Shown here: positions 39,367-62,904 of the stretch, piece after piece | Layout of the letters: the number at the start of each line of letters is the position of its first letter | How positions within the stretch are numbered: the stretch's first letter is position 1 | DNA from: Clostridia bacterium | GTDB taxonomy: Bacteria > Bacillota > Clostridia > Christensenellales > CAG-138 | Assembly: GCA_030533005.1 (NCBI GenBank) | Contig: JAUNJX010000006.1 | Span: 14,146-78,145, forward strand | Direction: 5' to 3' | Length of the DNA stretch: 64,000 bases | Position numbers and translations under genes: made by a program | The notes under the pieces: model-generated | What the model saw: the letters and a program-made list of their open reading frames with translations, nothing else | Told to the model about the DNA's origin: nothing | Databases searched by the model: none

Positions 39367-42300
39367 CTACAGCGTCGTCTCGCCGGAAAAAACGAGCGCA
39401 ACGCCGCCGGTCAAGGTCACGGTATCATCGGTATACCGGATATAGAGATCGCCGCCCAGGAGCTTAACAAGGATGGTTTCGCCCTTTTGGCAGAAGCCGT
39501 TTTCCACTGCCGCCACCACAGCCGCGCACGCGCCGCTGCCGCAGGCCCAGGTTTCCCCGCTGCCCCGCTCCCATACCCGCATGCGAAGGGCGTTGTTGCC
39601 TAAAGGACGCACGAATTCCGTATTGACGCGTTCGGGGAAGATAGCGGCGTTTTCAAACAAGGGGCCGATAGCGGCCACATCCAGCGTATCCACATCGTCA
39701 TGGAACACCACGGCATGCGGATTGCCCATGGAAACGCAGGTGATCTCATACCCTTCGCCTATATCCACAGCCCGCTTTACAACGCGCGCGCCCGGCAGCG
39801 TCACGGGGATATCCGCAGCCAGCAGCGAGGGTCTGCCCATGTCCACCGTGGCGTGCGTCACCACGCCGTTTCGCTTGTGCAGACTGACGCGGCGTATGCC
39901 GCTGGGCGTTTCGATATCCATGCAGGTCTTATCCACAACGCCCTGATCGTAAGCGAGCTTTGCCGCACACCTCAGCGCGTTGCCGCCCACCTCGCCCGCG
40001 CTTCCGTCAAGGTTGTAGATATCCACGCGGATATCCGCCCTTTGGGACGGATACAGGAGTGCCACGCCCTCCGCGCCCACGCCAAAATGCCTGTCGCTTA
40101 GGCGCACGGCGAGCCCGGCCGGGTTCGCAATGTCATTATCCTTGCCCCAAACGCAGATATAATCGTTGCCGCACGCCTGCATCTTATAGAAGGTGATACG
40201 CTGACGCGCTTTGCGCAGCGCATTGATATCCACAAGCTCGATGTTGCTTTGGCTGTAGCGCTCCTTTAAGCTGCCCGCCACGGCGTTCGCGGTATCGATG
40301 CTCGTAAGGCAGGGTATGCTCTTTTCCACGGCCTTTCGCCGTATGCGCACGCTGTCCCGCGTGGGGATGCGCCCCTTGGCGGAGGTGGAGATCACATAAT
40401 CGATCTTGCCGCTGTCCAACAGCTCCAGTATCTGCTCGCTGCCCTCGTGAAGCTTGGGCACCTTGGTCACGGGGAAGCCAAAGTTCTCGATGGCGCGAGC
40501 CGTACCTGGCGTCGCGTACAGGGTGCAGCCCACGTTATAAAGCCGCTTTGCGGTAAAGCCGATCTCGTGCTGGTCGCTGTCGCGTACGGAGAGCAGCACG
40601 CCGCCCGCCCGCTTCATCTGATACCCCGCCGCCACAAGACCCTTATAGAGCGCCTCCGGCATGGTGGAGGCAAGGCTCAACACCTCGCCTGTGGACTTCA
40701 TTTCGGGGCCAAGCTGCGTATCCACATCCGTCAGCTTTTCAAAGGAAAACACAGGCACCTTGACCGCCACATACGGCGATACGGGATATAGACCCGTGCC
40801 GTAGCCGAGGTCTTGCAGCCTTTCCCCCAGCATCACGCGGGTCGCAAGCTCCACCATGGGCACGCCCGTCACCTTGCTGATGTAGGGTATGGTGCGCGAC
40901 GCCCTTGGGTTGACCTCGATGACATACAGCTCGTTTTGATAGATAAGATACTGCATGTTCACGAGGCCGACTGCGTGCAGACCCAGCGCAAGCTTGCGGG
41001 AGGATTCCACGATACAGCTTTGCATTTCATCGTCCACGTTCCACGCCGGATACACGGCGATAGAATCGCCCGAATGCACGCCCGCCCGCTCGATATGCTC
41101 CATAACGCCGGGAATGAGTATGTTTTCGCCGTCGCAGATGGCGTCCACCTCGATCTCCGTGCCCATCAGATATTGATCGATCAACACGGGATTGGTGATG
41201 CCTTGCGCAAGTATGATCGCCATGTATTCATGGATATCCGCGTCGTTGAAGGCGATGATCATGTTCTGCCCGCCCAGCACATAGGAGGGACGAAGCAATA
41301 CGGGGTAACCAAGATCATTCGCGGCCGCAATCGCCTCCTCCTCCGTCATAACGGTCTCACCCTTGGGGCGCTTGATGTTAAGCGCGTTCAAAAGCGCGTC
41401 AAAGCGTTCCCTGTCCTCCGCCGCGTCGATGCCGTCCGCGCCCGTGCCCAGTATGCGCACGCCTTGGTCGGATAAAAAGCGCGTAAGCTTGATGGCGGTC
41501 TGTCCCCCAAAGGCCACCACGGCGGCGCAGGGCTTTTCCGTCGCAATCACGCCCGCCACGTCCTCCGGCGTCAGGGGCTCAAAATACAGCCTGTCCGCCG
41601 TATCAAAATCCGTTGAGACCGTCTCGGGGTTATTGTTGACGATCACCACCTCATAGCCGCACGCCTTCAGCGCCCATACGCAGTGCACGGAGGCGTAGTC
41701 GAATTCGATCCCCTGCCCTATGCGGATGGGGCCGGAGCCGAACACCATCACGGTTTTGGCCGTGCTGTTGCGGGAGGCAAGAAACGCCGCGGCCTCGTTT
41801 TCCTCGTCATAGGAGGCGTAGAAATACGGTGTTTGCGCGGCAAACTCCGCCGCACAGGTGTCCACCATCCGGTATACCGGCAGGCGGGGCGCTTCGATGG
41901 GCTCCCCCGCTATGCGCGCTATGACCTTGTCGGGATATCCCGCCTTTTTGGCCGCAAGATACAGCGCCTGCGTCATAGGTTCCGCGCTCAAGCGTTCTTC
42001 GAGTGCAACAAGCTTGGCAAGCTTATACAAAAACCACCTGTCGATGCCCGTAGCCTCGTGGATCGTATCGATCGCAATGCCCGCGTGCAAGGACGCAAAC
42101 ACGGCAAACAGCCTTTGATCGTCGCAAACGCGCAGGCGCGCGCATAATTCGTCTTGAGAAAGCGCCATAAAGTCCGAACGCAGACAGTCATGGCCGATTT
42201 CAGCGCCGCGCACGGCCTTCATCAGCGCCTCCTCAAAGGTCGCGCCGATGGCCATGACCTCCCCCGTCGCCTTCATCTGCGTGCCAAGGGTGCGTTTGGC

Positions 42301-43401
42301 ATAAACGAATTTGTCAAAGGGCCATTTGGGGAACTTCACCACCACATAATCAAGCGCGGGCTCAAAGCAGGCGCAGGTCTTGCCCGTAACGGCATTGAGG
42401 ATCTCCGGCAGGCGATAGCCTATGGCGATCTTGGCCGCCACCTTGGCGATGGGGTAGCCGGTAGCCTTGGAGGCAAGCGCCGAAGAACGGCTCACGCGCG
42501 GATTGACCTCGATAACGGCATACTGGAAGGAATCCGGGTGCAGCGCAAACTGACAGTTGCAGCCCCCCTCGATGCCCAGCGCCGTGATGATATTGAGCGC
42601 GGCGCTCCGCAGCATCTGGTATTCCTTATCGGACAGCGTCACTGCGGGCGCGATCACGATGCTGTCCCCCGTATGCACGCCCACGGGATCGAAATTTTCC
42701 ATGGAGCAAACGGTGATCACGTTGCCCGCGCCATCCCGCATGACCTCGAACTCGATCTCCTTCCAGCCCGCGATGCACTGCTCCACCAGTATTTGACGGA
42801 TGGGGGAAAGGCGCAATCCGTTGTCCGCGATCCTTCGCAAGGCCGCCTCGTCCTCCACGATGCCGCCGCCGCTGCCGCCCAGCGTAAAGGCGGGGCGTAT
42901 GATGAGCGGATAGCCGATCTCGTTTGCAAACGCCACCGCGTCCTCGATGTCCTCCACCACCTTGGAAGGGATCACAGGCTCGCCGATGGAGGTCATGGTG
43001 TCCTTGAACATCTGCCTGTCCTCGGCCTTGTCAATGGTATCGGGCGTCGTGCCTAAGAGGCGTACATGGTGTTTTTCCAGGTAGCCTTCCTTGGCAAGCT
43101 GCATGGCAAGCGTCAGCCCCGTCTGCCCGCCGAGCGTGGGCAATATGCTGTCCGGCTTCTCCTTTTCGATGATGCGCTTGACGACGGTGGTGGTCAAAGG
43201 CTCTATGTATATCTTATCCGCCATATGCCTGTCCGTCATGATGGTGGCGGGGTTGGAATTGAGCAGCACCACCTCCACGCCCTCCTCCTTGAGCGCGCGG
43301 CAGGCCTGCGTGCCCGCATAGTCGAATTCCGCCGCCTGCCCGATCACGATGGGGCCGGAGCCGATCACAAGTACCCGCTGTATGCTTTTATCGCGCGGCA
43401 T
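39367..43401 (-). CDS. carB: carbamoyl-phosphate synthase large subunit fused in frame to a C-terminal DapF-like (diaminopimelate epimerase fold) domain
   Basis: 1344-aa uninterrupted ORF. The first ~1068 aa are canonical CarB (two ATP-grasp halves plus an MGS-like domain). The last 276 aa (39367-40197) align with DapF (FYKMQACGNDY, SMGNPHAV, ERGSGETWACGSGACAA). Confidence 0.9.
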   Translation of the reverse strand: MPRDKSIQRVLVIGSGPIVIGQAAEFDYAGTQACRALKEEGVEVVLLNSNPATIMTDRHMADKIYIEPLTTTVVKRIIEKEKPDSILPTLGGQTGLTLAMQLAKEGYLEKHHVRLLGTTPDTIDKAEDRQMFKDTMTSIGEPVIPSKVVEDIEDAVAFANEIGYPLIIRPAFTLGGSGGGIVEDEAALRRIADNGLRLSPIRQILVEQCIAGWKEIEFEVMRDGAGNVITVCSMENFDPVGVHTGDSIVIAPAVTLSDKEYQMLRSAALNIITALGIEGGCNCQFALHPDSFQYAVIEVNPRVSRSSALASKATGYPIAKVAAKIAIGYRLPEILNAVTGKTCACFEPALDYVVVKFPKWPFDKFVYAKRTLGTQMKATGEVMAIGATFEEALMKAVRGAEIGHDCLRSDFMALSQDELCARLRVCDDQRLFAVFASLHAGIAIDTIHEATGIDRWFLYKLAKLVALEERLSAEPMTQALYLAAKKAGYPDKVIARIAGEPIEAPRLPVYRMVDTCAAEFAAQTPYFYASYDEENEAAAFLASRNSTAKTVMVFGSGPIRIGQGIEFDYASVHCVWALKACGYEVVIVNNNPETVSTDFDTADRLYFEPLTPEDVAGVIATEKPCAAVVAFGGQTAIKLTRFLSDQGVRILGTGADGIDAAEDRERFDALLNALNIKRPKGETVMTEEEAIAAANDLGYPVLLRPSYVLGGQNMIIAFNDADIHEYMAIILAQGITNPVLIDQYLMGTEIEVDAICDGENILIPGVMEHIERAGVHSGDSIAVYPAWNVDDEMQSCIVESSRKLALGLHAVGLVNMQYLIYQNELYVIEVNPRASRTIPYISKVTGVPMVELATRVMLGERLQDLGYGTGLYPVSPYVAVKVPVFSFEKLTDVDTQLGPEMKSTGEVLSLASTMPEALYKGLVAAGYQMKRAGGVLLSVRDSDQHEIGFTAKRLYNVGCTLYATPGTARAIENFGFPVTKVPKLHEGSEQILELLDSGKIDYVISTSAKGRIPTRDSVRIRRKAVEKSIPCLTSIDTANAVAGSLKERYSQSNIELVDINALRKARQRITFYKMQACGNDYICVWGKDNDIANPAGLAVRLSDRHFGVGAEGVALLYPSQRADIRVDIYNLDGSAGEVGGNALRCAAKLAYDQGVVDKTCMDIETPSGIRRVSLHKRNGVVTHATVDMGRPSLLAADIPVTLPGARVVKRAVDIGEGYEITCVSMGNPHAVVFHDDVDTLDVAAIGPLFENAAIFPERVNTEFVRPLGNNALRMRVWERGSGETWACGSGACAAVVAAVENGFCQKGETILVKLLGGDLYIRYTDDTVTLTGGVALVFSGETTL

Positions 43402-52435: not shown

Positions 52436-53079
52436 TTTGCAGTCTTGCCGGCCTTTTTGATTGGATGCCGGATCACGGTTTTGCGTTTTGCCGCGTCGCC
52501 CTTTCTGGGATCGGACAAATAGATCTCGTGATGCAGCCTTGCATCCGTCATATCGTTCACATAGCCTTGCTTTCGGAGGTAATCGTCCATCAGCGCTACG
52601 GTGGCCGGTTCGTCGTCAAAGCTGCCGATGTGCATGATCTGCACGCACAAGCCTTCCTCAATCGTAAGATACTCCGCCTTGGAGCAATCCATTTTCTTTT
52701 TTCTTTCCGCCTCCGCCACAGCCCAAGCGAAATCCGCCTCGGTAATAAAGTCGGGGAGGCGTATCACGGATATCCAGTTGAATTTCTCCTTGCTGGCGTA
52801 ATCCACGCCGTCCATGCCCTCCTGCCACCAAAAACCCTCCAGCGGCGGCACGACGTAATCAAAATACCCGTCGATCTTATGGTCGCCCTTATAGCTCATT
52901 TTCAGCGTATAAGCTATGGCATACAAAACGCCCACCGCCTGCTGATACGCGCCGCCCTCCTCGTTGGGATTGCCGCTGCCGCGCACGGCGATATAGCGCA
53001 TGACGGGCACCTCTACGATCTCCGGCTTGTTTTTCGGCTGATAGAATTCTTTGTATTCTTTTTTATAATCAAATGCCAT
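52432..53079 (-). CDS. GyrI-like small-molecule-binding domain protein
   Basis: I prefer the start at 53079 ([25 protein letters not shown]...), a typical N-terminus for this family. Confidence 0.75.
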   Translation of the reverse strand: MAFDYKKEYKEFYQPKNKPEIVEVPVMRYIAVRGSGNPNEEGGAYQQAVGVLYAIAYTLKMSYKGDHKIDGYFDYVVPPLEGFWWQEGMDGVDYASKEKFNWISVIRLPDFITEADFAWAVAEAERKKKMDCSKAEYLTIEEGLCVQIMHIGSFDDEPATVALMDDYLRKQGYVNDMTDARLHHEIYLSDPRKGDAAKRKTVIRHPIKKAGKTAK

Positions 53080-55903
53080 CGTTTTCTTCCTGCGCTTTCC
53101 CTTCCTCCATCTCCTCCGGCTTGGATATCGCAAGGATACCCGACATAAGGGAGGCCATGTATTTGACGGTTTCCGCTATCTGCTGCGCGCTGCTTGCGAT
53201 CGCCGCCTTGTCGTCAAGCTGGGTCTGCATAAGCTCGGCAAGGCCGGCGATGGCGTCCATGGGCGTACGCATCTGCTGCGACATGCGGGAAAGGAAGTCG
53301 CTCTTGGCCTCGTTCGCCTGCTGCGCAAGGGAAAGCTGCGCCTCCGCGTCCCGCAGCTTGAGCTGCCCCTGCTTTTGCGCGGTGATATCGACAAAGGTGA
53401 TGACGCTGCCGAGTATTTTATTATCCGTCGTGCGGAAGGGGACGATGCGCATAAAGAAGGTCTTGCCCCGGCGCGTGAGCACCTCGCGTTCCTCCGCCGC
53501 AAGCGTCTCAATGACGGTATGGCACAGATCGGAAATGTTCAATTCCGGGAAGTGATAGGAAATAAAGTCGATGGGGCGGCCGATATCCTGATCCAGCACA
53601 TTGAACTCCGTCGCCACATAATTGGTAAAGCGGCGAAGGTTCAGCTTGCTGTCCACAAAGATGATGCCGATCAGCGTCGTAGCCAGGAAGTTCGTAATAT
53701 CGTCGCTCATTTCCGCAAGCTCCGTCAGCTTCAGCTGATATTCGGAGTTCACGGTATACAGCTCCTCATTGACGGACTGCAATTCCTCGTTGGAGCTTTG
53801 CAGCTCCTCGTTGGCGGTCAGCAGCTCCTCGTTGGACGCCTGCAATTCCTCGTTGACACATTCCTGCTCGGTCACGCTCCTGGTCAGCCTGTCATGCACC
53901 TTGGTCAGCTCCTGCTCCAGATCCGTGATGCGCTGCGCCGCCATGTGATTGATATCATAGGGCGTGGATTCGGGAATGGCCTCGCTTTGCTTGACCTCGG
54001 CAAAGACCAGCGCATACAGCCTGTCCGCCTCCTCCTTAGGTCTGCTGATGGGCAGCGCTGTAAGATTGAGCACGCCCGCGTACATATCGCCCGAAAAGTG
54101 GATGCCCGTATACTGCACCATCTTCTGTTTTTCACGAGCCTCCTTCAACGCGGTCGAAACGGGAATACGGAGCGACTCCTCAATGATATCGAAAAGCGCG
54201 CTTGTCACCCGGCCGACGGGGAAGGAAATATAGTTCTTGCTGTTGCCGTATACATAGACCAGCTCGTTCTTCTCGTTGACGACGAGACAGGCCGGCATAA
54301 AGCGTTCCAAAAGCTCCGTATTGATCGCCATCTGATCGGATATGTTCTCCTGCCCGGCGCCATCCCGTCCGCCGGCGGAGGGTGGCTCGGGATCCATATA
54401 GGCTTCGTCGTCGATCATGTTTTGCAGGTAAGGCACCGCCTTGGCGCCGGGTATTTTCACCTTGCTGTGATGGGTGAATATCTTTGCCATGGCGTCCACG
54501 ACGGGGAACACCTCCGTATAGGTGCCCACCGCCTCGGATTTACCAAGGAACAGATAGCCGCCGTCCTTGAGGGCTGCATGGAAAATGGAAAACAGATCCT
54601 TTTGCAGCACAGGCTGGAAATAGATCATCAGATTGCGGCAGGAGATCAGGTCAAGGCGAGCAAAGGGCGGATCCTGAATGACGTTGTGCGGCGAGAAGAT
54701 CAGCATCTTGCGCACGTCCCGGTTGATGGTGTAATTATTGCCCTTGCGGGAGAAATAGCGGCTGAGCCTTGCCGTGGAAACAGAGCTTGCGATGCTGGTA
54801 CCGTACACGCCCTTACCCGCGGTAGCCACCGCTTCGGCGTCCAGATCGGTCGCAAATATCTTGACCTCGCGCCTAAGCTTCAGCGTTTCCATGACCTCGC
54901 AGAAAAGGATGGCGATGGAATACGCCTCCTCGCCTGTGGAGCAGCCCGCGACCCATACGCGAATAGGCTCCTCTTCCTTGCTGTTCGCCACGATATTGGT
55001 GACTGCCTTTTCCTTTAAGCACTCAAAAAATTCCGGCTCCCTAAAGAAGTTCGTAACGCCGATGAGCACTTCCTTGGCCAGTATCTTCGCCTCATCCGGC
55101 CGTTCGCCAAGATAGTCCACATAGTCGGCAAGCGTTTCCTTGCGCGCGAGCAGCATCCGCCGCTCGACCCTGCGCAGCAGCGTCGCCCTTTTATAATGGG
55201 TAAAGTTGATGTCGCTGGCTTTTCTAAGCGCATAATAGATGCGACCCATCAGCTCATCATCGATCTCCCGCTCCGTCTTGTCATGCAGGTTACCCCCTTT
55301 GGCAGCAAGAGACACATGCTCAAGCTCCAAAGCAATCTCCTCGGGCGTACCAAGGAAATCCACCAGCCCCGTACGCACAGCGCTCTTTGGCATGCCGTCA
55401 AACTTGGAATTTTCCGGGCTTTGGACGATGACCATGCCATCGTTTTCCTTGATGCTCTTGATGCCGTTGGTGCCGTCCGAGCCGGTGCCCGAAAGCACGA
55501 CGGCGATCGCGTTGGCGCCGACATTTTCAGCCAAGGATCGGAAAAAGGTATCGATGGGAAGATGCAGCTCGCCGCTTTTCTGTTCGTCAAGGCACAGACT
55601 CCCATCCGAGATGTACAAGGTCTTGCGCGGCGGGATCACATAAACGCAATCCGGATTGATCGCCATGTGATCCTCCGCCTGAATGACGGGCATGGAGGTG
55701 TTCTTGGAGAGGATTTCGCTCAACAGGCTTTTGTAATCCGGCGAAAGATGCTGAATCAAAACATAGGAAAAGCCAAGATCGGCCGGCAGCGCCGTCAAGA
55801 GGTTCTGCAAGGCTTCCAGCCCGCCCGCGGACGCGCCGATGCCTACGATAAAAGGCTCATCCTGCTTTTTTGCCGCCTTGACCAGCGAACTGTCCTTATC
55901 CAT
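53069..55903 (-). CDS. CheB methylesterase - CheR methyltransferase - PAS - coiled coil - PAS - HisKA-like fusion protein (no HATPase domain)
   Basis: 944 aa from the ATG at 55903 (GAGGTGG RBS). It has a CheB core ([12 protein letters not shown]), a CheR SAM domain ([14 protein letters not shown]), the NEEL-repeat coiled coil ([30 protein letters not shown]), and a terminal DHp-like helix [21 protein letters not shown]. Confidence 0.85.
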
Positions 55904-56146
55904 TGTTTCCACCTCTCTAAATCTCAAAACTTTCTTTGGTATAAATGATGTACACCTATGTAACAAGTAGGCACAAGCATGTGCGCATGCATTTTTGTAT
56001 ATAGAACAAGCAATTTTACTATGTTTATATTATATAGTGATTTTTGCATGAATTCAACAGGCAATATGCGACGCCGCGCGCTTTATCCCGTCCCGCCCTT
56101 ATGCTATAATCGGTATGCACGACAACCAAACGCGGAGGATGGAAGC

Positions 56147-57478
56147 ATGGAACAAGAAACGTTGCGAATCAACGGCATACCGGCCGTCGTCTACGGCAGC
56201 GAGGCGGACGGCGTTTTCCTTTTTGTGCACGGAAAGAACGGCAATAAGGAGGAGGCGGAGGATTTCGCCCAAAGCGTCTCAAACAAAGACTGGCAGGTGC
56301 TTGGCGTGGATCTGCCGGAGCACGGCGCGCGCCAGGCGGAAAAGGACACGCTCAAGCCGTGGCTGGTCATCCCGGAGCTGCGGGGCGTGATGCAATACGC
56401 AAAACAGCGCTGGCAAAGGATAGGCTTAAGAGCCAACAGCATCGGCGCATGGTTCAGCATGCTAAGCTTTGCGGGAGAAGCGCTCGAAAGGTGTCTGTTC
56501 GTTTCGCCTATTCTTGATATGGAGCGGTTGATCATCGACATGACGGGCTGGGCCGGCGTATCCGAAGCGCAGCTTCAGGAACAGGGCGAGATCGGTACTT
56601 CTTTCGGCGAAACGCTGTCATGGCGGTATCTGGAGTTTGCCCGGCAGCATCCGATTGCGGATTGGAACGCCCCCACGGCGATACTGTATGCCGGCAAAGA
56701 TACCCTTACCGCCAGAGAAACCGCAGAAGCCTTCGCAAAGCGTTTTCATTGCGATCTTTCCATCATGGAAAACGGCGAGCACTGGTTCCACACGCCGGAA
56801 CAGATGGAGGTTTTGCATAGCTGGACGGACGCGCAGATCAGCCGTATCCCGAAAAGCACACCGGCAGAAGCGGAAAACGTCACGCTGCGATTTGCAGCCG
56901 CTGCGGACAGCGCGGCGCTGCGCGACATTTACGCGCAATATATCGACACGACCATCACATTTGAATACGCATTGCCGACGGAAGCGGAATTCGCAAGGCG
57001 CATAGACGACGTCATGGCCTGTTACCCGTATCTCGTGTGCGAGCAAGCCGGAAAGGTCATAGGCTACGCCTACGCGCACAGGCACAGGGAGCGGGAAGCG
57101 TATCAATGGAACGCGGAGCTGTCCGTCTATCTCGCCCCCTCCCATAGAGGCAAGGGACTTGGCAAAATGCTCTTTCACGCCCTGCTCGGGCTGCTGCGGC
57201 TGCAAGGCGTCAAGACGGTCTACAGCGGCGTCGCCATGCCGAATGAAGCAAGCGAAGGGCTGCATGCAAGCATGGGCTTTTCCCGCCTGGGCACCTACCA
57301 CAATACCGGCTATAAATGCGGCGGGTGGCACGACGTCACATGGTTTGAAAAGCAGCTCAACGCCCTCGATGCGTCCCCTGCGCCCATCCTGCCCATAAAC
57401 GAGCTTTCAGTGGCGGCGGTAGGCGCCGTTTTGGAGAGCGCCGCGCGCGGCGGCGCAAGCGCTCACTTGAGCAAATAA
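56147..57478 (+). CDS. alpha/beta hydrolase fused to a PAT/MnaT-like GNAT N-acetyltransferase
   Basis: 443 aa from the ATG at 56147 (GGAGGA RBS, TGcTATAAT at 56102-56110). The N-terminal half is hydrolase-like (FVHGKNGNKEE..., NSIGAW). The C-terminal half is TLRFAAAADSAALRDIYAQYI...RGKGLGKML...GGWHDVTWFEKQL, typical of phosphinothricin/methionine-sulfoximine acetyltransferases. Confidence 0.8.
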   Translation: MEQETLRINGIPAVVYGSEADGVFLFVHGKNGNKEEAEDFAQSVSNKDWQVLGVDLPEHGARQAEKDTLKPWLVIPELRGVMQYAKQRWQRIGLRANSIGAWFSMLSFAGEALERCLFVSPILDMERLIIDMTGWAGVSEAQLQEQGEIGTSFGETLSWRYLEFARQHPIADWNAPTAILYAGKDTLTARETAEAFAKRFHCDLSIMENGEHWFHTPEQMEVLHSWTDAQISRIPKSTPAEAENVTLRFAAAADSAALRDIYAQYIDTTITFEYALPTEAEFARRIDDVMACYPYLVCEQAGKVIGYAYAHRHREREAYQWNAELSVYLAPSHRGKGLGKMLFHALLGLLRLQGVKTVYSGVAMPNEASEGLHASMGFSRLGTYHNTGYKCGGWHDVTWFEKQLNALDASPAPILPINELSVAAVGAVLESAARGGASAHLSK

Positions 57479-58335: not shown

Positions 58336-58746
58336 CTAGGCAGGCTGAATGATATGCGCTTGAAATAAAGCCTCAAAGGTGTTTGCCGCGCCGCCGTGCT
58401 CGACGATCTTTCCGTTTTGCACCTTATCGACGTCAACGCCGGTAATGGTCAATCTCTTGTTCGTGGGCTTCATCCCCAGCCATTCGCCCTGATGCGTGCC
58501 CTCCATGATGAATTCGGAGATCACATAATCGCCGTCATGATATTGGCGAATGATCCGCATGGTGTAATCCGGGTAGGTCTTTTTCACGTCGATCAAATGC
58601 TGCTTCATCCCCTCGAGACCAAGCAGGACAGTCTGTTCCCCTATCCGCAGTACGCAATCCTCCGCTATATAAGCGGCCACCTCGTCAAGCAAATGCTCCG
58701 ACACGACCCTTTCATAGAAATATCGCACAGCTTCCTTATCGCTCAT
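58336..58746 (-). CDS. SnoaL-like ester cyclase family protein
   Basis: 136 aa. The N-terminal ...AVRYFYERVVSEHLLDEVAAYIAEDCV... and C-terminal ...GKIVEHGGAANT... are typical of the family. Confidence 0.75.
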   Translation of the reverse strand: MSDKEAVRYFYERVVSEHLLDEVAAYIAEDCVLRIGEQTVLLGLEGMKQHLIDVKKTYPDYTMRIIRQYHDGDYVISEFIMEGTHQGEWLGMKPTNKRLTITGVDVDKVQNGKIVEHGGAANTFEALFQAHIIQPA

Positions 58747-59050: not shown

Positions 59051-59238
59051 CCGAAGCGCCTCCTAAATGCAGATCGGCGGCGCTGTTACCCGCTGCCCTT
59101 TGGGCATTATACCACAAGGAATACAAACGGGCTACATGCCGTGATCCTTTATTGGGGCCGGCAATGATGGTGCACGGCAATGCACCCCTTTGCATTTAGG
59201 GGTGCATTGGTTGGTATGCTATGCGATCCTTCGTGCGA

Positions 59239-60057
59239 TCACTTTCGCTTGACAGGATAGCAGACCTCGGTCACGAGCTCGTCGGGATTCTGCGTTTGCG
59301 CGGGGCTGACGTGGTAGATGCAGAACATGGGGCCGTTAAACGCATAGCCGTTGTCGTTCACCCAGTTGGCTACCGCATGGTTTACGGCGTTGAGCTGGTC
59401 ATAGCTTCCCTTATAGGTGGCGGAGGCAACCTCGATGGGAGAAACGGTCTTGAACACCACATGCTCGGTGTTCTCATAGCGTCCCTTTACCATGACCTGA
59501 ATCTCCACATCCACATCGTTCTCTTTGTAACCCTCGTCGTGAAAAACGGCAGCGCTGCAGCAGTTTTCCGCAAACTGCATCTTAAGCTGCTCCGTTTCCG
59601 ACATCATCGTGTTCCAAAGAAGCTGCTCATGGCTGTAGGAGGGTATGATCTGGCGGACGCTTGCGACATAGCGCTCCGGCATGGTTTTCAATGATACGTT
59701 GTAATTCATAGCAGTTTTATCCTTTCTCAGCCGTTCTATGGCCGTTTCAAGGAGCAGCAGACGTTGCTTCGTTTCCTCGGCCTCCGCTTGCAGTTCCATA
59801 TGCTTTACCGTCAGGAATTCGGCGAGCGCGTGCGGATCGTTATAGCATTGCAGTATCTCGCCGATCGCAGCAAGGCCGAAGCCCATATCCCGCAGGGAGG
59901 CGATCCGTCCGGCGACAGGAAGCTGATCCTCCGCGTAGTAGCGGTAGCCTGTAAAACCGTCTGTTGCTTTGGGTATAAGCAGACCCATTTCATCGTAATG
60001 CCGAAGCATCCGTATGCTGATCCTTGAAAGTCTTGAAAAATCACCTATTTTTAGCAT
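59239..60057 (-). CDS. MerR-family regulator with GyrI-like effector-binding domain
   Basis: 272 aa with the N-terminal HTH MLKIGDFSRLSRISIRMLRHYDEMGLL, a coiled coil, and a C-terminal GyrI-like domain. Confidence 0.9.
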   Translation of the reverse strand: MLKIGDFSRLSRISIRMLRHYDEMGLLIPKATDGFTGYRYYAEDQLPVAGRIASLRDMGFGLAAIGEILQCYNDPHALAEFLTVKHMELQAEAEETKQRLLLLETAIERLRKDKTAMNYNVSLKTMPERYVASVRQIIPSYSHEQLLWNTMMSETEQLKMQFAENCCSAAVFHDEGYKENDVDVEIQVMVKGRYENTEHVVFKTVSPIEVASATYKGSYDQLNAVNHAVANWVNDNGYAFNGPMFCIYHVSPAQTQNPDELVTEVCYPVKRK

Positions 60058-60097
60058 TCTTTTTCCTCACATATATGTGTTTTTTGAGCTCGCTATC

Positions 60098-60128
60098 AGT
60101 ATAAAGTCTGTCACAGTGGTAGAGTCAA
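60098..60128 (-). promoter_or_regulatory. MerR-type promoter with 19-nt spacer
   Basis: Minus strand TTGACT-19 nt-TATACT. The spacer contains the partial dyad ACTGT-G-ACAGA. Confidence 0.5.
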
Positions 60129-60220
60129 TAGGCGGATGAAAAATATTTCTTCCGCCCGAAACGAAAAGTATTATGGGTGGGCAAACGTAAGCCCTGCGCC
60201 ACACACAGTAATAAGGCACA

Positions 60221-61018
60221 TCATTTTTCAAACAGAATGGGTAAGCCCTCCGCACATATAGGAAATGCGGTTTCCAAGGGATTATCGCGTTGATGCTGTA
60301 TGTGTAAATGCGGCTCTGATGTGGTTCCGGAGTTGCCGACCTTGCCAATCACCTGACCTTGCTTAACATGGTCTCCTATCTTTACCGATATGCTGTCCTG
60401 CTGCAAATGCGCTAAAATGAGATATGTGCCGGTAGTATCTATTTCAATAAATATGTAGTTGCCTAAAGCGCTGCTAAACGCATCCGTGTTCGGGATGATA
60501 TCCGGTTCTTTGTTTTCCAAACCAATGACCGTTCCCGAAATCGGCGCAGCAATATCACAGCTGAAAATTCCATAATCATCCAAATTCTCACTGCCAATAT
60601 CATATGGATTTTTCAATATGTCATATGCATAGCACTCTGAAGGCCACATAGCATGCGTTTTATATCCTTTCCCGCCAAATAGCACTGCATCTTCAACCGG
60701 CAGGGTCATTGCAACAGCGTCGTTTGGATTCGCATGCGTTGGGTACGTCACCGGGGAGACGCCGATTAAAACGGTAATCGGCAACGCAATAAGGAGTAAA
60801 ACAACAGTAAAAGCAATATTCCAAAGAACATTTTTCTTTTTATGCAACGCGATCATGAAAACAGGCACTTGAACCAGCAATGTGATGATTGCCGCGGGCG
60901 CAAGAATACATACCGCAATATTCCAAGCATAAGCACCGGCTTGACCGCCGACAAACCAAATGCAGCCTGTACAAACACAAGCAACTGCGCACAGAAATAC
61001 CGTTGCGGTTTTTTTCAT
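60221..61018 (-). CDS. membrane-anchored M23-family metallopeptidase
   Basis: 265 aa with 3 N-terminal TM helices. LAHLQQDS...GQVIGKVGNSGTTSEPHLHIQ is the M23 HxxxD/HxH region. The gene is lower in GC than its surroundings. Confidence 0.85.
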   Translation of the reverse strand: MKKTATVFLCAVACVCTGCIWFVGGQAGAYAWNIAVCILAPAAIITLLVQVPVFMIALHKKKNVLWNIAFTVVLLLIALPITVLIGVSPVTYPTHANPNDAVAMTLPVEDAVLFGGKGYKTHAMWPSECYAYDILKNPYDIGSENLDDYGIFSCDIAAPISGTVIGLENKEPDIIPNTDAFSSALGNYIFIEIDTTGTYLILAHLQQDSISVKIGDHVKQGQVIGKVGNSGTTSEPHLHIQHQRDNPLETAFPICAEGLPILFEK

Positions 61019-61155
61019 CGTTTCACTCCGTAAAACATTCCCAATTCCCTTACATTTTCCGATTTTTCGATTTGCCTATGCCGCACAAGCGAACGCACCC
61101 CTTGCATGCCGAAGTGCACACCCGCTGCTGGCGGCTGCTTTTGTTTGCACTTTTT

Positions 61156-61818
61156 CTATTGATCCGCTAAAAAATCCAATATCAATTCCGCGATCTTCTT
61201 TTTGTGTACGATATAACTCCCGTGTCCATGCATACGCATGATGCGCATGCTGCTCCCGGGTATGTTCGCAGCGATAAACGCCGTATCGGCACGCTTGACC
61301 ATATCGTGCCCGCCTGCCAGCACGAGCGTAGGCGCCTTGATCCGCTGCAGCATTTCGCCCGTAATGTGCGGTTCTCGCAGCATCATATCCATCTTGGCGT
61401 CGTGCAGGCGCCCGTTCAGGCGCACAAAGAACCTTCTCCACCCGTCCCGTATCCCTTGCGGGCTGGTATTCGCCCCGCTCACGATCAATGCGGACAAAAG
61501 CGACGGATCGTCGCAGGCGAGCAGCAGCCCTATGATGCCACCATCGCTAAAGCCGTACAAAGCCGGCTTCACAAGCCCCAATGCAGCGATAAAGCAGCGC
61601 ACATCCTCCTTCATGTCGTCGTAATGATAACACGCGGCTGCATCGCTCAAGCCGTGACCGCGGCTGTCTATCGCGTAGACCGTGTATCGCGCGGACAGCA
61701 AGGGGATCGCCTTGTCGAATATCCTATGCGTTTCGCCATTGCCGTGCAGCAGGATAAGCGGCCTGCCCGCGCCGCATGTCTCATAATACAAATTGATTCC
61801 GTTAACGTTTATTTTCAT
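61156..61818 (-). CDS. alpha/beta hydrolase
   Basis: 220 aa from the ATG at 61818 (MKINVNGINLYYETCGAGRPLILLHGNG...), with nucleophile elbow GFSDGG. Confidence 0.85.
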   Translation of the reverse strand: MKINVNGINLYYETCGAGRPLILLHGNGETHRIFDKAIPLLSARYTVYAIDSRGHGLSDAAACYHYDDMKEDVRCFIAALGLVKPALYGFSDGGIIGLLLACDDPSLLSALIVSGANTSPQGIRDGWRRFFVRLNGRLHDAKMDMMLREPHITGEMLQRIKAPTLVLAGGHDMVKRADTAFIAANIPGSSMRIMRMHGHGSYIVHKKKIAELILDFLADQ

Positions 61819-61961
61819 TCGCTTTTCTTGCGCATAGCAGAGACCTGCTCCATTTTTCCACGGGGCACCACGGAAAACACGTTTCGGTATGATATATGTC
61901 AGGTAAAAAGATAGACCTGATCGATCAGGGTCGGTTTTCGGGCCAAACGAATCCGCTTGCA

Positions 61962-62216
61962 TCAGCTGCGGCGCAAACTACCACATGAACCAAAAACGGC
62001 GGCCGCAGTTCTGGCACTCGTACTCATGGAAATCCCCATGTCGGCAGCGTCGATGCGGTCGAAATCAGTAGACCCGCAAAATTGGCAAGGATGGTAGGAG
62101 CCGACGCCGGGTTCATACTCGCCCTCCCCCTCGCCGCCAGACACCTGCCGGAGCGCTTCCTCGATCATGGGGTCAATGGTTTTTTCAGTATCCCTGCTGT
62201 GCCTCCTTCCGTTCAC
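61962..62216 (-). pseudogene. decayed paralog of the small Cys-rich double-glycine-leader gene
   Basis: The 5' 70 nt are ~90 % identical to the copy at 62463-62532. The ATG is AGG here (62193-62195), and the second CxxC half (HEYECQNCGRRFWFMW*) is only readable after a 1-nt frame change at the run of four G (coding strand) at 62044-62047. Confidence 0.5.
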
Positions 62217-62285
62217 TTTACTTTGTATCAGGGCAAGGGGGCTACGATCCCCTGACGATCCCCGGAGGTTTATCCACAGCCCCGG

Positions 62286-62516
62286 CTACGGAATAAACGG
62301 TACGGCGAGGGCACAGAACCGGCAGCCGCAGCTCTGGCACTCGTACAGCCAGAGATCCCCGCCGACGACCTGGAGGATGTTGAAATGATTATCTCCGCAT
62401 TTTTTGCATCGTCGGGCGAGTTTGAAGTTGGGGTCATAATCGACCTCGCCCTCGCCGGCGGCCACCTGCTGGAGCGCTTCCTCGATCAAGGGGTTGATGT
62501 TTTTTTCAGTATCCAT
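62286..62516 (-). CDS. small Cys-rich protein with double-glycine-type leader (76 aa)
   Basis: [33 protein letters not shown]|EGEVDYDPNFKLARRCKKCGDNHFNILQVVGGDLWLYECQSCGCRFCALAVPFIP. Confidence 0.65.
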   Translation of the reverse strand: MDTEKNINPLIEEALQQVAAGEGEVDYDPNFKLARRCKKCGDNHFNILQVVGGDLWLYECQSCGCRFCALAVPFIP

Positions 62517-62570
62517 GCTGTGCCTCCTTCCGATCGCTTTGTTTTGTACCCTTTGTTGGGCGCCGCCCGC

Positions 62571-62774
62571 TCAAGAATACCGGTAGGTTACCATAACGTC
62601 CGTGCTGCCGCAGAACGGGCAGACTTCTTCCTTCGTGATGGCTGGCATGCCGCAGGATCGGCACTCGATCTCAAAGAACCCGTTCGCCTCGTAGCCGCCG
62701 CCTACCCTGTTAAGATACTCGTCCACCAGCTTTTGTTTTTCCGGGGGAATGTTGTTGATGTCCACTCGTTCCAT
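62571..62774 (-). CDS. small Cys-rich protein with double-glycine-type leader (67 aa)
   Basis: AGGAGG RBS 8 nt before the ATG at 62774. MERVDINNIPPEKQKLVDEYLNRVGGG|YEANGFFEIECRSCGMPAITKEEVCPFCGSTDVMVTYRYS. Confidence 0.65.
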   Translation of the reverse strand: MERVDINNIPPEKQKLVDEYLNRVGGGYEANGFFEIECRSCGMPAITKEEVCPFCGSTDVMVTYRYS

Positions 62775-62904
62775 GCTGCGTACCTCCTGCTCTTTTATTC
62801 TTTTATACGTTTCAGCATACCAGATGTTAGGAGAAAAATATATAGTTTTAAACAGATCAAAACCGATTTTATCCGGGCTTTTGGCTTGGCTAAAGACCAC
62901 CATC

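What the first reader, a model, noticed from the sequence alone, without database searches (positions are those of the whole stretch)
61962..62903. Three tandem paralogous small genes encoding double-glycine-type leaders fused to CxxC-rich cores
Seen: three consecutive minus-strand small genes, each with a strong RBS.
- C: ...KQKLVDEYLNRVGGG-YEANGFFEIECRSCGMPAITKEEVCPFCGSTDVMVTYRYS
- B: ...NPLIEEALQQVAAG-EGEVDYDPNFKLARRCKKCGDNHFNILQVVGGDLWLYECQSCGCRFCALAVPFIP
- A (decayed): ...DPMIEEALRQVSGG-EGEGEYEPGVGSYHPCQFCGSTDFDRIDAADMG(fs)DFHEYECQNCGRRFWFMW

Counting back from the GG/AG, all three have a hydrophobic residue at -4, Leu at -7, Glu at -9 and a hydrophobic residue at -12. This is close to the classic bacteriocin/lanthipeptide double-glycine leader pattern. 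The cores carry 4-6 Cys in CxxC pairs.

The genes sit between a sortase-anchored surface protein and an alpha/beta hydrolase, a membrane M23 peptidase and a MerR regulator, in a lower-GC stretch.

Inference: they may be precursors of exported Cys-rich peptides (RiPP or class II bacteriocin-like, possibly metal-binding).

Caveats: no C39-peptidase ABC exporter, radical SAM maturase or lanthionine synthetase is in the window. CxxC...CxxC with YECxxCG / CPxCGS also resembles intracellular FmdB-type zinc ribbons.
Basis: partly seen in the sequence, partly recalled or inferred. Interest (0 to 1): 0.65.

Follow-up and report, generated by a model that had tools for sequence, protein, structure and literature searches.

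The report
Zinc-ribbon mini-proteins with bacteriocin-type leaders
Two intact small genes and one broken copy in a gut Oscillospiraceae-like genome encode a short N-terminal segment resembling the double-glycine export leader of bacteriocins, fused to a four-cysteine zinc-ribbon-like domain; this rare combination may mark a new kind of exported mini-protein, but no exporter was found near any family member.

Summary
On the minus strand lie C (62571-62774, 67 aa), B (62286-62516, 76 aa) and A (61978-62195). A is a pseudogene: its start codon is ATG->AGG and one G is missing from a G-run. C is under purifying selection (12 synonymous vs 2 non-synonymous changes against an orthologue).

The family is very rare: about eight clusters among billions of proteins. 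All relatives keep V(-4), L/V/I(-7), L/I/M(-12) and a Gly at -1. These are the positions a C39 peptidase reads.

- The N-termini of two relatives pass NCBI's cut-off for the bacteriocin double-glycine leader model TIGR01847. The three window genes do not.
- C and A/B share only this leader module (hhalign 93%); their cores do not align.
- In a related MAG, recombination between the two leaders fused a B-type leader to an A-type core.
- The cores match C4 zinc ribbons weakly but consistently. They are acidic.

No C39-ABC exporter, immunity gene or maturase lies next to any member. I examined about seven distinct contexts, including the 64-kb window, which has no ABC ATPase. One subfamily sits directly upstream of an ECF sigma factor.

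Best reading (about 0.45): leader-bearing zinc-ribbon mini-proteins, cleaved and exported in trans. Main rival (about 0.37): uncleaved cytoplasmic zinc-ribbon proteins.

The parts
62571..62774 (-). Gene C, 67 aa. Leader-like residues 1-27 (62694-62774) end in RVGGG. The core has two CxxC knuckles (CRSC, CPFC).
   Evidence: Orthologues at 97% and 78% identity. dN/dS 0.036 and 0.195.
62783..62787 (-). GGAGG ribosome-binding site of C, 8 nt before the ATG.
   Evidence: Conserved in L006 and L002.
62775..62871 (-). Upstream region of C, conserved across genomes and probably holding the promoter (TGnTATGCT, an extended -10-like site).
   Evidence: blastn and alignment with L006 and L002. The consensus scan found no site here, so the promoter is inferred.
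62286..62516 (-). Gene B, 76 aa. Leader-like residues 1-21 (62454-62516) end in QVAAG. The core has CKKC...CQSC plus two extra Cys.
   Evidence: AF2: helix 9-22, then three strands at 45-70 with pLDDT 72-82.
62523..62527 (-). GGAGG ribosome-binding site of B, 6 nt before the ATG. The 54-nt C-B spacer has no terminator-like site.
61978..62195 (-). Pseudogene A, a paralogue of B (leader 62133-62195).
62193..62195 (-). Lost start codon of A: AGG where B and the L006 orthologue have ATG.
62034..62037 (-). Frameshift site in A: a run of 4 G where the L006 orthologue has 5.
61916..61929 (-). Terminator-like hairpin (CCTGATCGATCAGG plus a T-rich tail) after A. It coincides with the downstream end of the cassette shared with L006.
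61919..62871 (-). The whole cassette shared with an uncultured Oscillospiraceae MAG. Both flanks are unrelated there.

Best explanation
C and B (and formerly A) are precursors of small leader-bearing zinc-ribbon proteins.

Proposed mechanism. An 18-27-residue N-terminal amphipathic helix ending in Gly-Gly (Ala-Gly in B) acts as a double-glycine-type secretion leader. A C39 peptidase domain of an ABC exporter (PCAT) encoded elsewhere in the genome docks on the hydrophobic residues at -12, -7 and -4. It cuts after the Gly at -1 and exports the 40-55-residue acidic core. The core folds around a metal bound by four cysteines. C and B are co-transcribed from a promoter upstream of C.

Locus behaviour. 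The locus evolves like a bacteriocin or accessory-peptide locus: duplication, divergent cores behind conserved leaders, recombination between leaders, gene decay, and movement between genomic contexts.

Shown: gene structure, purifying selection on C, conservation of the leader determinants, the leader-model matches of relatives, the zinc-ribbon-like core, the recombinant, and the pseudogene lesions.

Inferred: cleavage, export, metal binding, and any extracellular role (antagonism, signalling or metal capture).
For: 1. Leader determinants are kept in all about 12 distinct sequences of four subfamilies: Gly at -1 (12/12), Gly at -2 (10/12), V at -4, L/V/I at -7, L/I/M at -12. In the PCAT1-CtA and LahT structures, L(-7) and L(-12) form the hydrophobic knot, -4 sets specificity, and the helix spans -10 to -4 (PMC6959990).
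2. Leader-only scans: P0018 scores 19.2 bits and P0010 16.6 bits against the TIGR01847 cut-off of 15.7. Further sub-threshold hits go only to class IIb bacteriocin, EntF induction factor, lanthipeptide leader and RiPP models.
3. hhalign of the C family against the A/B family aligns only the 14 leader columns (Prob 93%, E 3.5e-7). The module is shared and the cores differ.
4. Within subfamilies the leader varies except at the key positions. Residues +1 to +4 after GG are the most variable part, and the Cys knuckles are invariant.
5. A versus B: in the leader pN 0.11 < pS 0.20; in the first half of the core pN 0.49 > pS 0.22.
6. L006 carries a B-type leader fused to an A-type core, with the junction right after the GG codons.
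7. The cassette sits in unrelated flanks in different genomes, and the family is extremely rare and patchy.
8. Size fits a known PCAT substrate: CtA is 24 + 66 residues, and specificity lies in the leader alone.
9. The proteins have no signal peptide or TM segment, and there is no Rfam, phage or defence-system match.
Against: - No C39-ABC exporter, immunity-like protein or maturase lies within reach of any member. Contexts examined: the window (64 kb, no ORF with both Walker A and LSGGQ), L002, L006, L007/L008, L013, L014 and L004.
- The window's own A, B and C leaders hit no leader model.
- B and the L006 chimera have Ala at -2. From my own knowledge of the ComA and LahT work, this is the least tolerant position.
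- By my count from the sequences, the cores are acidic (net about -1 to -4) and beta-rich, unlike cationic class II bacteriocins.
- CPxCG / YxCxxCG knuckles are typical of intracellular zinc ribbons.
- The P0017/P0021 subfamily is coupled to an ECF sigma gene 17-18 nt downstream, which also fits an intracellular regulator.
- A leaderless relative of the core exists (P0015).
- Amphipathic helices ending in GG are not rare, so the HMM E-values overstate specificity.
Confidence: 0.45

Rival explanations
1. These are cytoplasmic, uncleaved small zinc-ribbon proteins. The N-terminal helix is a partner-binding motif, the GG-x-G stretch is a flexible linker to a C4 zinc ribbon, and the protein acts as a regulator or adaptor. 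In one subfamily it may work with or on an ECF sigma factor.
For: - The core profile matches C4 zinc ribbons over both knuckles: aIF2-beta 5e-4, L37Ae 1e-3, RPA12, RPB9.
- There are weak Pfam and NCBIfam hits to Lar, ECs_2282, FmdB, IS1595 and YgiT ribbons.
- The best Foldseek zinc-ribbon match is NrdR (prob 0.92), though not significant.
- There is no exporter in any context.
- P0017/P0021 lie 17-18 nt upstream of an ECF sigma gene on more than 10 contigs.
- The cores are acidic, B has Ala at -2, and a leaderless relative exists (P0015).
Against: - It does not explain why the conserved positions coincide with the C39 recognition set (-12, -7, -4, -2, -1).
- It does not explain why two relatives pass TIGR01847, or why all weak N-terminal hits are to bacteriocin or RiPP leaders.
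- It does not explain why C and A/B share only this module.
- It does not explain why recombination exchanges cores behind leaders.
- The sigma link is limited to one closely related set of contigs. It is absent from the window, L002, L006, L007 and L013.
- No member reaches the cut-off of any zinc-ribbon family.
Confidence: 0.37
2. These are RiPP precursors. The leader recruits a modifying enzyme (radical SAM, ATP-grasp or similar) that crosslinks the Cys-rich or Asp/Glu/Thr-rich core before removal at the GG site.
For: - In L014 the peptide gene follows an ATPgrasp_ST protein and a 440-aa protein. The 440-aa protein has PP-loop-like (SCGVDS) and CGECYAC motifs and ends 29 nt upstream of the peptide gene.
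- The P0018 leader gives a weak hit to TIGR04497, 'ATP-grasp target RiPP' (E 0.12).
- A radical SAM gene lies 3 kb from the C homologue in L002.
Against: - There is no maturase in the window or in L006, L007 or L013.
- The L002 radical SAM gene is separated by four genes on the other strand and sits next to a TetR gene.
- ATPgrasp_ST is described by Pfam as sugar-transfer associated.
- CPxCG knuckles and predicted beta-hairpins point to metal binding rather than thioether or ester crosslinks.
- All RiPP-model hits are far below cut-off.
Confidence: 0.08
3. C and B form a class IIb-like two-peptide bacteriocin pair.
For: - The two genes are adjacent and differ in sequence, each has its own RBS, and there is no terminator between them.
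- C is paired with an A/B-type gene in both the window and L006.
- The P0017 and P0018 leaders give weak hits to TIGR03949.
Against: - C stands alone in L002, and the A/B-type relatives stand alone elsewhere.
- The cores are acidic, with no GxxxG helix motifs.
- No immunity gene is present.
- All hits are below cut-off.
Confidence: 0.05

Closest known systems
Double-glycine (bacteriocin-type, TIGR01847 / ComC-like) leader peptides exported by C39-peptidase ABC transporters (PCAT/AMS), e.g. CtA-PCAT1, ComC-ComAB, LahA-LahT
   Same: - The leader is 18-27 residues long.
- It forms a helix with hydrophobic residues at -12, -7 and -4 and Gly at -2 and -1.
- Two relatives pass the TIGR01847 cut-off.
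- Cargo size is 40-55 aa, compared with 66 aa for CtA.
- Paralogues keep conserved leaders while their cores diverge.
   Different: - No PCAT is nearby.
- The window's own leaders fall below the model threshold.
- B has Ala-Gly.
- Glu sits at -9/-10 rather than -8.
- The cargo is a zinc-ribbon-like, acidic domain. I found no description of this combination.
Small C4 zinc-ribbon proteins (FmdB/Zn_ribbon_8, Lar, ECs_2282, archaeal CPxCG mini-proteins)
   Same: Two CxxC(G) knuckles sit on beta-hairpins. The motifs are CPxCGS and Y-E-C-x-x-C-G-x-x-F. The proteins are 60-80 aa long.
   Different: - No family cut-off is reached.
- The knuckle order is reversed relative to FmdB.
- All members carry a conserved N-terminal helix-GG extension that these families lack.
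Streptococcal blp/com-type bacteriocin loci
   Same: - The small genes lie in tandem.
- Leader-mediated recombination produces chimeras.
- Pseudogenes are frequent.
- Export in trans by a distant transporter is known. This comparison rests on my own knowledge.
   Different: There are no immunity genes and no two-component regulation. The cores are not cationic or helical, and the lineage is different (Oscillospiraceae-like).

Membership tests
Double-glycine leader / PCAT substrates | Gly-Gly (or Gly-Ala/Ser) at -2/-1 | tested here: inconclusive
   C has GGG and A has GG, but B has Ala-Gly. Relatives: 10 of 12 have GG.
Double-glycine leader / PCAT substrates | Hydrophobic residues at -4, -7 and -12 on a short helix | tested here: met
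   V / L / L or M in A, B and C and in all relatives. AF2 predicts a helix at residues 9-22, at low pLDDT. Criterion taken from PMC6959990.
Double-glycine leader / PCAT substrates | Score at or above the curated cut-off of TIGR01847 (15.7 bits) | tested here: not met
   The window's A, B and C give no hit. The relatives P0018 (19.2 bits) and P0010 (16.6 bits) pass when the leader is scanned alone.
Double-glycine leader / PCAT substrates | Cognate C39-ABC exporter in the locus or genome | tested here: not met
   None was found in the 64-kb window or within 10 kb in about seven distinct contexts. The rest of the genome could not be read.
Double-glycine leader / PCAT substrates | Cleavage after GG and export | not testable with these tools
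   This needs biochemistry or peptidomics. No sequencing run holding the locus could be listed.
C4 zinc ribbon (FmdB PF09723 / TIGR02605, Lar TIGR03655, ECs_2282 NF047912) | Score at or above the family cut-off | tested here: not met
   Best scores: A 25.6 against 37 (ECs_2282), C 24.9 against 39.6 (Lar), A 17.6 against 34.4 (PF09723).
C4 zinc ribbon (fold class) | Two CxxC knuckles on beta-hairpins, with four invariant Cys | tested here: met
   C37, C40, C60, C63 and G41, G64 are invariant. The profile matches aIF2-beta, L37Ae and RPA12 ribbons. AF2 predicts three strands at pLDDT 72-82. Foldseek gives nothing significant.
C4 zinc ribbon (fold class) | Zinc binding | not testable with these tools
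   This needs a metal analysis.
Class IIb two-peptide bacteriocins (TIGR03949) | Model score at or above 21.5; cationic helical cores with GxxxG; an adjacent immunity gene | tested here: not met
   Best score is 16.4 bits, for a relative's leader only. The cores are acidic and beta-rich, and no immunity-like gene is present.
RiPP precursors (lanthi-, sacti-/ranthi-, graspetides) | An adjacent maturase (LanM/LanBC, rSAM-SPASM, ATP-grasp) conserved across the family | tested here: not met
   None is present in the window. An ATP-grasp occurs only in L014, and an rSAM lies 3 kb away in L002. Neither is conserved.
Zinc-binding anti-sigma factors (ZAS) | HxxxCxxC motif and pairing with a sigma gene | tested here: not met
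   There is no HxxxCxxC motif. Sigma adjacency is found only in the P0017/P0021 subfamily, not in the window.

The most novel reading that the evidence does not exclude
A previously undescribed class of PCAT cargo: metal-stabilised (Cys4 zinc-ribbon) mini-proteins exported by strict anaerobes through a double-glycine leader. In these proteins a metal site would take the structural role that disulfides play in secreted peptides of aerobes. They could act as antagonistic, signalling or metal-scavenging factors, and in one subfamily they would be wired to an ECF sigma factor.
Probability: 0.35. Interest if true: 0.7.

Novelty: new variant of a known kind. Interest (0 to 1): 0.45.

Why it matters
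Suppose the leader is functional. These would then be the first double-glycine-leader cargos whose mature part is a zinc-ribbon fold. That would widen what PCAT transporters are thought to export. It would also raise the question of whether a folded or metal-loaded domain can pass through the transporter, or loads its metal outside the cell. And it would add a peptide class from uncultured gut Oscillospiraceae that standard bacteriocin and RiPP miners miss, because no transporter or maturase is adjacent.

Suppose instead the leader is not cleaved. The family would then be a useful warning: the double-glycine consensus, even above the TIGR01847 cut-off, can occur on intracellular proteins.

Tried and rejected
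- Pfam, NCBIfam, PHROGs and PADLOC scans of the peptides: nothing above cut-off, and no phage or defence link.
- Rfam scan of 58-64 kb: no RNA family.
- Word-indexed homologue searches with B and with C: only the query itself and two C orthologues.
- Exhaustive profile search of 1.84 billion representatives: 14 hits, of which only P0008, P0010, P0017 and perhaps P0015 are real. The rest are C2H2 finger arrays (P0005, P0011) or 'GMGDLxxYExQ' repeat proteins.
- Scans of genome, metagenome and viral contigs: only L012 (the same locus as L006).
- The source contig of 79 kb could not be retrieved beyond the window.
- No sequencing runs could be listed, so there is no expression or read-level check of the A lesions.
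- tblastn against plasmids and phages: only chance zinc-knuckle matches.
- Foldseek against the PDB: no hit below E 0.08.
- The 70-aa 'second GG peptide' after the sigma gene in L004 looked like support. Its counterpart in L016/L017 diverges before the GG site, so I give it little weight.
- The lipoprotein Peptidase_C39_2 in L013 is 5 kb away with unrelated genes between, and it is not a PCAT. I treat it as coincidental.
- Literature search: no paper describes GG leaders on zinc ribbons, and none mentions DUF7005.

Full report
**What is there**

Three small genes lie head to tail on the minus strand at the right end of the window.

- C (62571-62774, 67 aa) has an ATG start and a GGAGG site 8 nt upstream.
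- B (62286-62516, 76 aa) has an ATG start and a GGAGG site 6 nt upstream.
- The third copy, A (61978-62195), is a pseudogene with two lesions. Behind an intact RBS its start codon reads AGG. A G-run at 62034-62037 has four G where the orthologue has five, which shifts the frame.

A Logan assembly of run SRR24915808 is identical over 59170-62740. I could not check the lesions at read level, because no run could be listed.

A and B are clear paralogues: 48% identical in protein, about 74% in DNA, with near-identical RBS and leader DNA. C is a different matter. A profile-profile comparison aligns only 14 columns, the leader segment (KLVDEYLNRVGGG against PLIEEALQQVAAG), at Prob 93% and E 3.5e-7. 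The cores do not align.

They are a surface protein ending in a sortase-type signal, an alpha/beta hydrolase, a membrane M23 peptidase and a MerR/GyrI-like regulator. The 'lower-GC stretch' applies only to the M23 gene (0.44). The three small genes have GC 0.52-0.59, like the rest of the window.

**Are they real genes?**

C has orthologues at 97% identity (L006, an uncultured Oscillospiraceae MAG, GCA_964408655.1) and at 78% (L002, P0004). Against L006 there are 12 synonymous and 2 non-synonymous changes (dN/dS 0.036). Against L002 dN/dS is 0.195. C is therefore a protein-coding gene under purifying selection.

B has no close relative apart from A. The exhaustive profile search and a profile-seeded search did find the same architecture at 27-38% identity: P0010 and P0019 (74-76 aa), and P0017, P0018, P0021 and P0024 (63-80 aa). 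The family is extremely rare. There are about eight 90%-identity clusters, in collections of 5.8 billion clusters and 1.84 billion representatives.

**The N-terminal module**

Counting back from the last Gly, every sequence has the same pattern:

- V at -4
- L, V or I at -7
- L, I or M at -12
- Gly at -1
- Gly at -2 in all but B and the L006 chimera, which have Ala

A Pro at -11 or -13 caps the helix. These are the determinants seen in the PCAT1-CtA and LahT structures: a helix from -10 to -4, a hydrophobic knot formed by L(-7) and L(-12), specificity set by -4, and a narrow cleft for GG (PMC6959990).

Within subfamilies the other leader positions drift. For example, MEDKVILKKEEVAQVSGG, MEDKKNLNEEQLAQVSGG and MEEKVILKKEEISKVSGG sit in front of almost identical cores. 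The first four residues after GG are the most variable part of the protein (YEAN / NKAN / STEG; DGST / IGFG).

Scanned alone, the leader of P0018 scores 19.2 bits and that of P0010 16.6 bits against TIGR01847, the NCBI model for the bacteriocin double-glycine leader, whose cut-off is 15.7. All remaining weak hits go to class IIb bacteriocins, the EntF induction factor, a lanthipeptide leader and RiPP precursors. The window's own three leaders hit nothing. Membership by that model is therefore met by relatives only.

**The core**

All A/B-type members keep C37, C40, G41, C60, C63, G64 and F67 (B numbering) and a Y-[DE]-P motif ahead of the first knuckle.

- No Pfam or NCBIfam zinc-ribbon family reaches its cut-off. 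All sub-threshold hits are zinc ribbons: Lar, ECs_2282, FmdB, IS1595, YgiT.
- A family profile matches solved C4 ribbons over both knuckles: aIF2-beta 5e-4, L37Ae 1e-3, RPA12, RPB9.
- AlphaFold2 with a six-sequence alignment gives an N-terminal helix (residues 9-22, low confidence) and a three-stranded sheet at 45-70 with pLDDT 72-82.
- Foldseek finds nothing significant. The best ribbon-like match is NrdR.
- By my count from the sequences, the cores are acidic (net about -1 to -4).
- None of the proteins has a signal peptide or a membrane segment.

**Locus dynamics**

The stretch 61919-62871 is shared with L006, but both flanks are unrelated there. C with its about 70-100 bp upstream region is shared with L002, again in a different setting.

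L006 has only two genes: C, and a chimera whose leader is B-type and whose core is A-type. Relative to the window, 320 bp between the two leaders are missing, and the junction lies directly after the GG codons. This is the expected product of recombination between the two leader repeats. The chimera carries its own +1 frameshift at the junction.

The A-type core is thus disabled by different lesions in two lineages. Its nine differences between them are all non-synonymous and spare the Cys. Between A and B, the leader shows pN 0.11 < pS 0.20, while the first half of the core shows pN 0.49 > pS 0.22. These counts are small. Conserved leaders, fast-evolving cores, leader-mediated chimeras and decay are what one sees in bacteriocin loci (my own knowledge of blp-type loci).

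**Context**

This is the weak point of the export hypothesis.

- The 64-kb window holds housekeeping genes. No ORF has both a Walker A and an ABC signature.
- No PCAT, immunity-like protein or conserved maturase lies within 10 kb in L002, L006, L007/L008, L013 or L014.
- The neighbours differ everywhere.

One subfamily (P0017/P0021) is always followed, 17-18 nt later, by an ECF sigma gene. Where enough upstream sequence is present, it is preceded 29 nt earlier by a 440-aa PP-loop-like protein. In L014 the whole string is DUF218 - GNAT - PTE - ATPgrasp_ST - 440 aa - peptide - sigma - lyase. These contigs are near-identical to one another, so they count as one observation.

In L013 a lipoprotein of the Peptidase_C39_2 type lies 5 kb upstream and a CPBP protease 2 kb downstream. 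I treat both as coincidental.

**Verdict**

The sequence facts are solid. On function, two readings remain close.

I favour leader-bearing zinc-ribbon mini-proteins that are cut at the GG site and exported in trans (0.45). This reading alone explains four things together:

- why the conserved positions are the C39 recognition set;
- why relatives pass the leader model;
- why C and A/B share only that module;
- why recombination swaps cores behind leaders.

The main rival is an uncleaved cytoplasmic zinc-ribbon protein whose N-terminal helix binds a partner (0.37). It is favoured by the missing exporter, the typical intracellular CPxCG knuckles, the acidic cores, Ala at -2 in B, and the sigma coupling.

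A RiPP reading (0.08) and a two-peptide bacteriocin reading (0.05) have little support. I found no paper describing double-glycine leaders on zinc ribbons. If the favoured reading is right, this is a new variant of a known kind.

A search of the complete genomes for a PCAT and an in-vitro C39 cleavage assay would settle it.

Noticed in passing
window 60221-61018: The membrane M23 peptidase gene has GC 0.44, against 0.54-0.58 around it, which suggests recent acquisition. The hydrolase-M23-MerR block is absent downstream of the cassette in the related MAG L006.
   Followed up: partly
L006 502-721 (GCA_964408655.1, uncultured Oscillospiraceae): A chimeric gene joins a B-type leader to an A-type core. 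It corresponds to a 320-bp deletion between the two leader repeats, and it has its own +1 frameshift at the junction.
   Followed up: yes
L004 91-1416; L014 2304-6252; L015-L023: A zinc-ribbon/GG gene lies 17-18 nt upstream of an ECF sigma gene. In L014 an ATPgrasp_ST protein and a 440-aa protein with PP-loop-like SCGVDS and CGECYAC motifs precede it. After the sigma gene comes either a small 'SRIEEML...' protein (plus DUF7005 in L004) or a Lyase_1 gene.
   Followed up: partly
L013 4216-4995 and 12106-12954: A lipoprotein of the Peptidase_C39_2 type (lipobox LVLCAC, catalytic YTCGCAS) lies 5 kb upstream of a family member. A CPBP/Rce1-like intramembrane protease lies 2 kb downstream, and an ABC-2 pair 5 kb downstream.
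   Followed up: partly
window 58336-58746 and L002 4624-5040: A SnoaL-like gene (72% nt identity) lies directly upstream of the C homologue in L002. In the window it sits 4 kb away on the other side of the cassette. This looks like residual synteny that has been rearranged.
   Followed up: no
window 39367-43401: A single 1344-aa ORF joins a carbamoyl-phosphate synthase large chain (with MGS domain) to a C-terminal diaminopimelate epimerase domain. This looks like an unusual fusion.
   Followed up: no
P0009, P0012, P0016 (hits): These secreted-looking proteins are built of repeats 'GMGDL[HR]xYE[AS]Q'. The repeat resembles the 'MGDFHEYECQ' stretch of the A core. Their origin and meaning are unknown, and the resemblance is probably coincidental.
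   Followed up: no
P0015 (68 aa, Logan contig of 1437 bp): A leaderless relative of the A/B-type core (CPRCGDKDY...WQYECLNCGTRL). It shows that the ribbon also occurs without the helix-GG module.
   Followed up: no
window 53069-55966 and 55979-57478: Two multi-domain fusions lie about 5-9 kb from the cassette: a CheB-CheR-PAS-HisKA protein (965 aa), and a protein with a marginal Hydrolase_4 match (26.9 bits against a cut-off of 27) plus a GNAT domain (499 aa).
   Followed up: no
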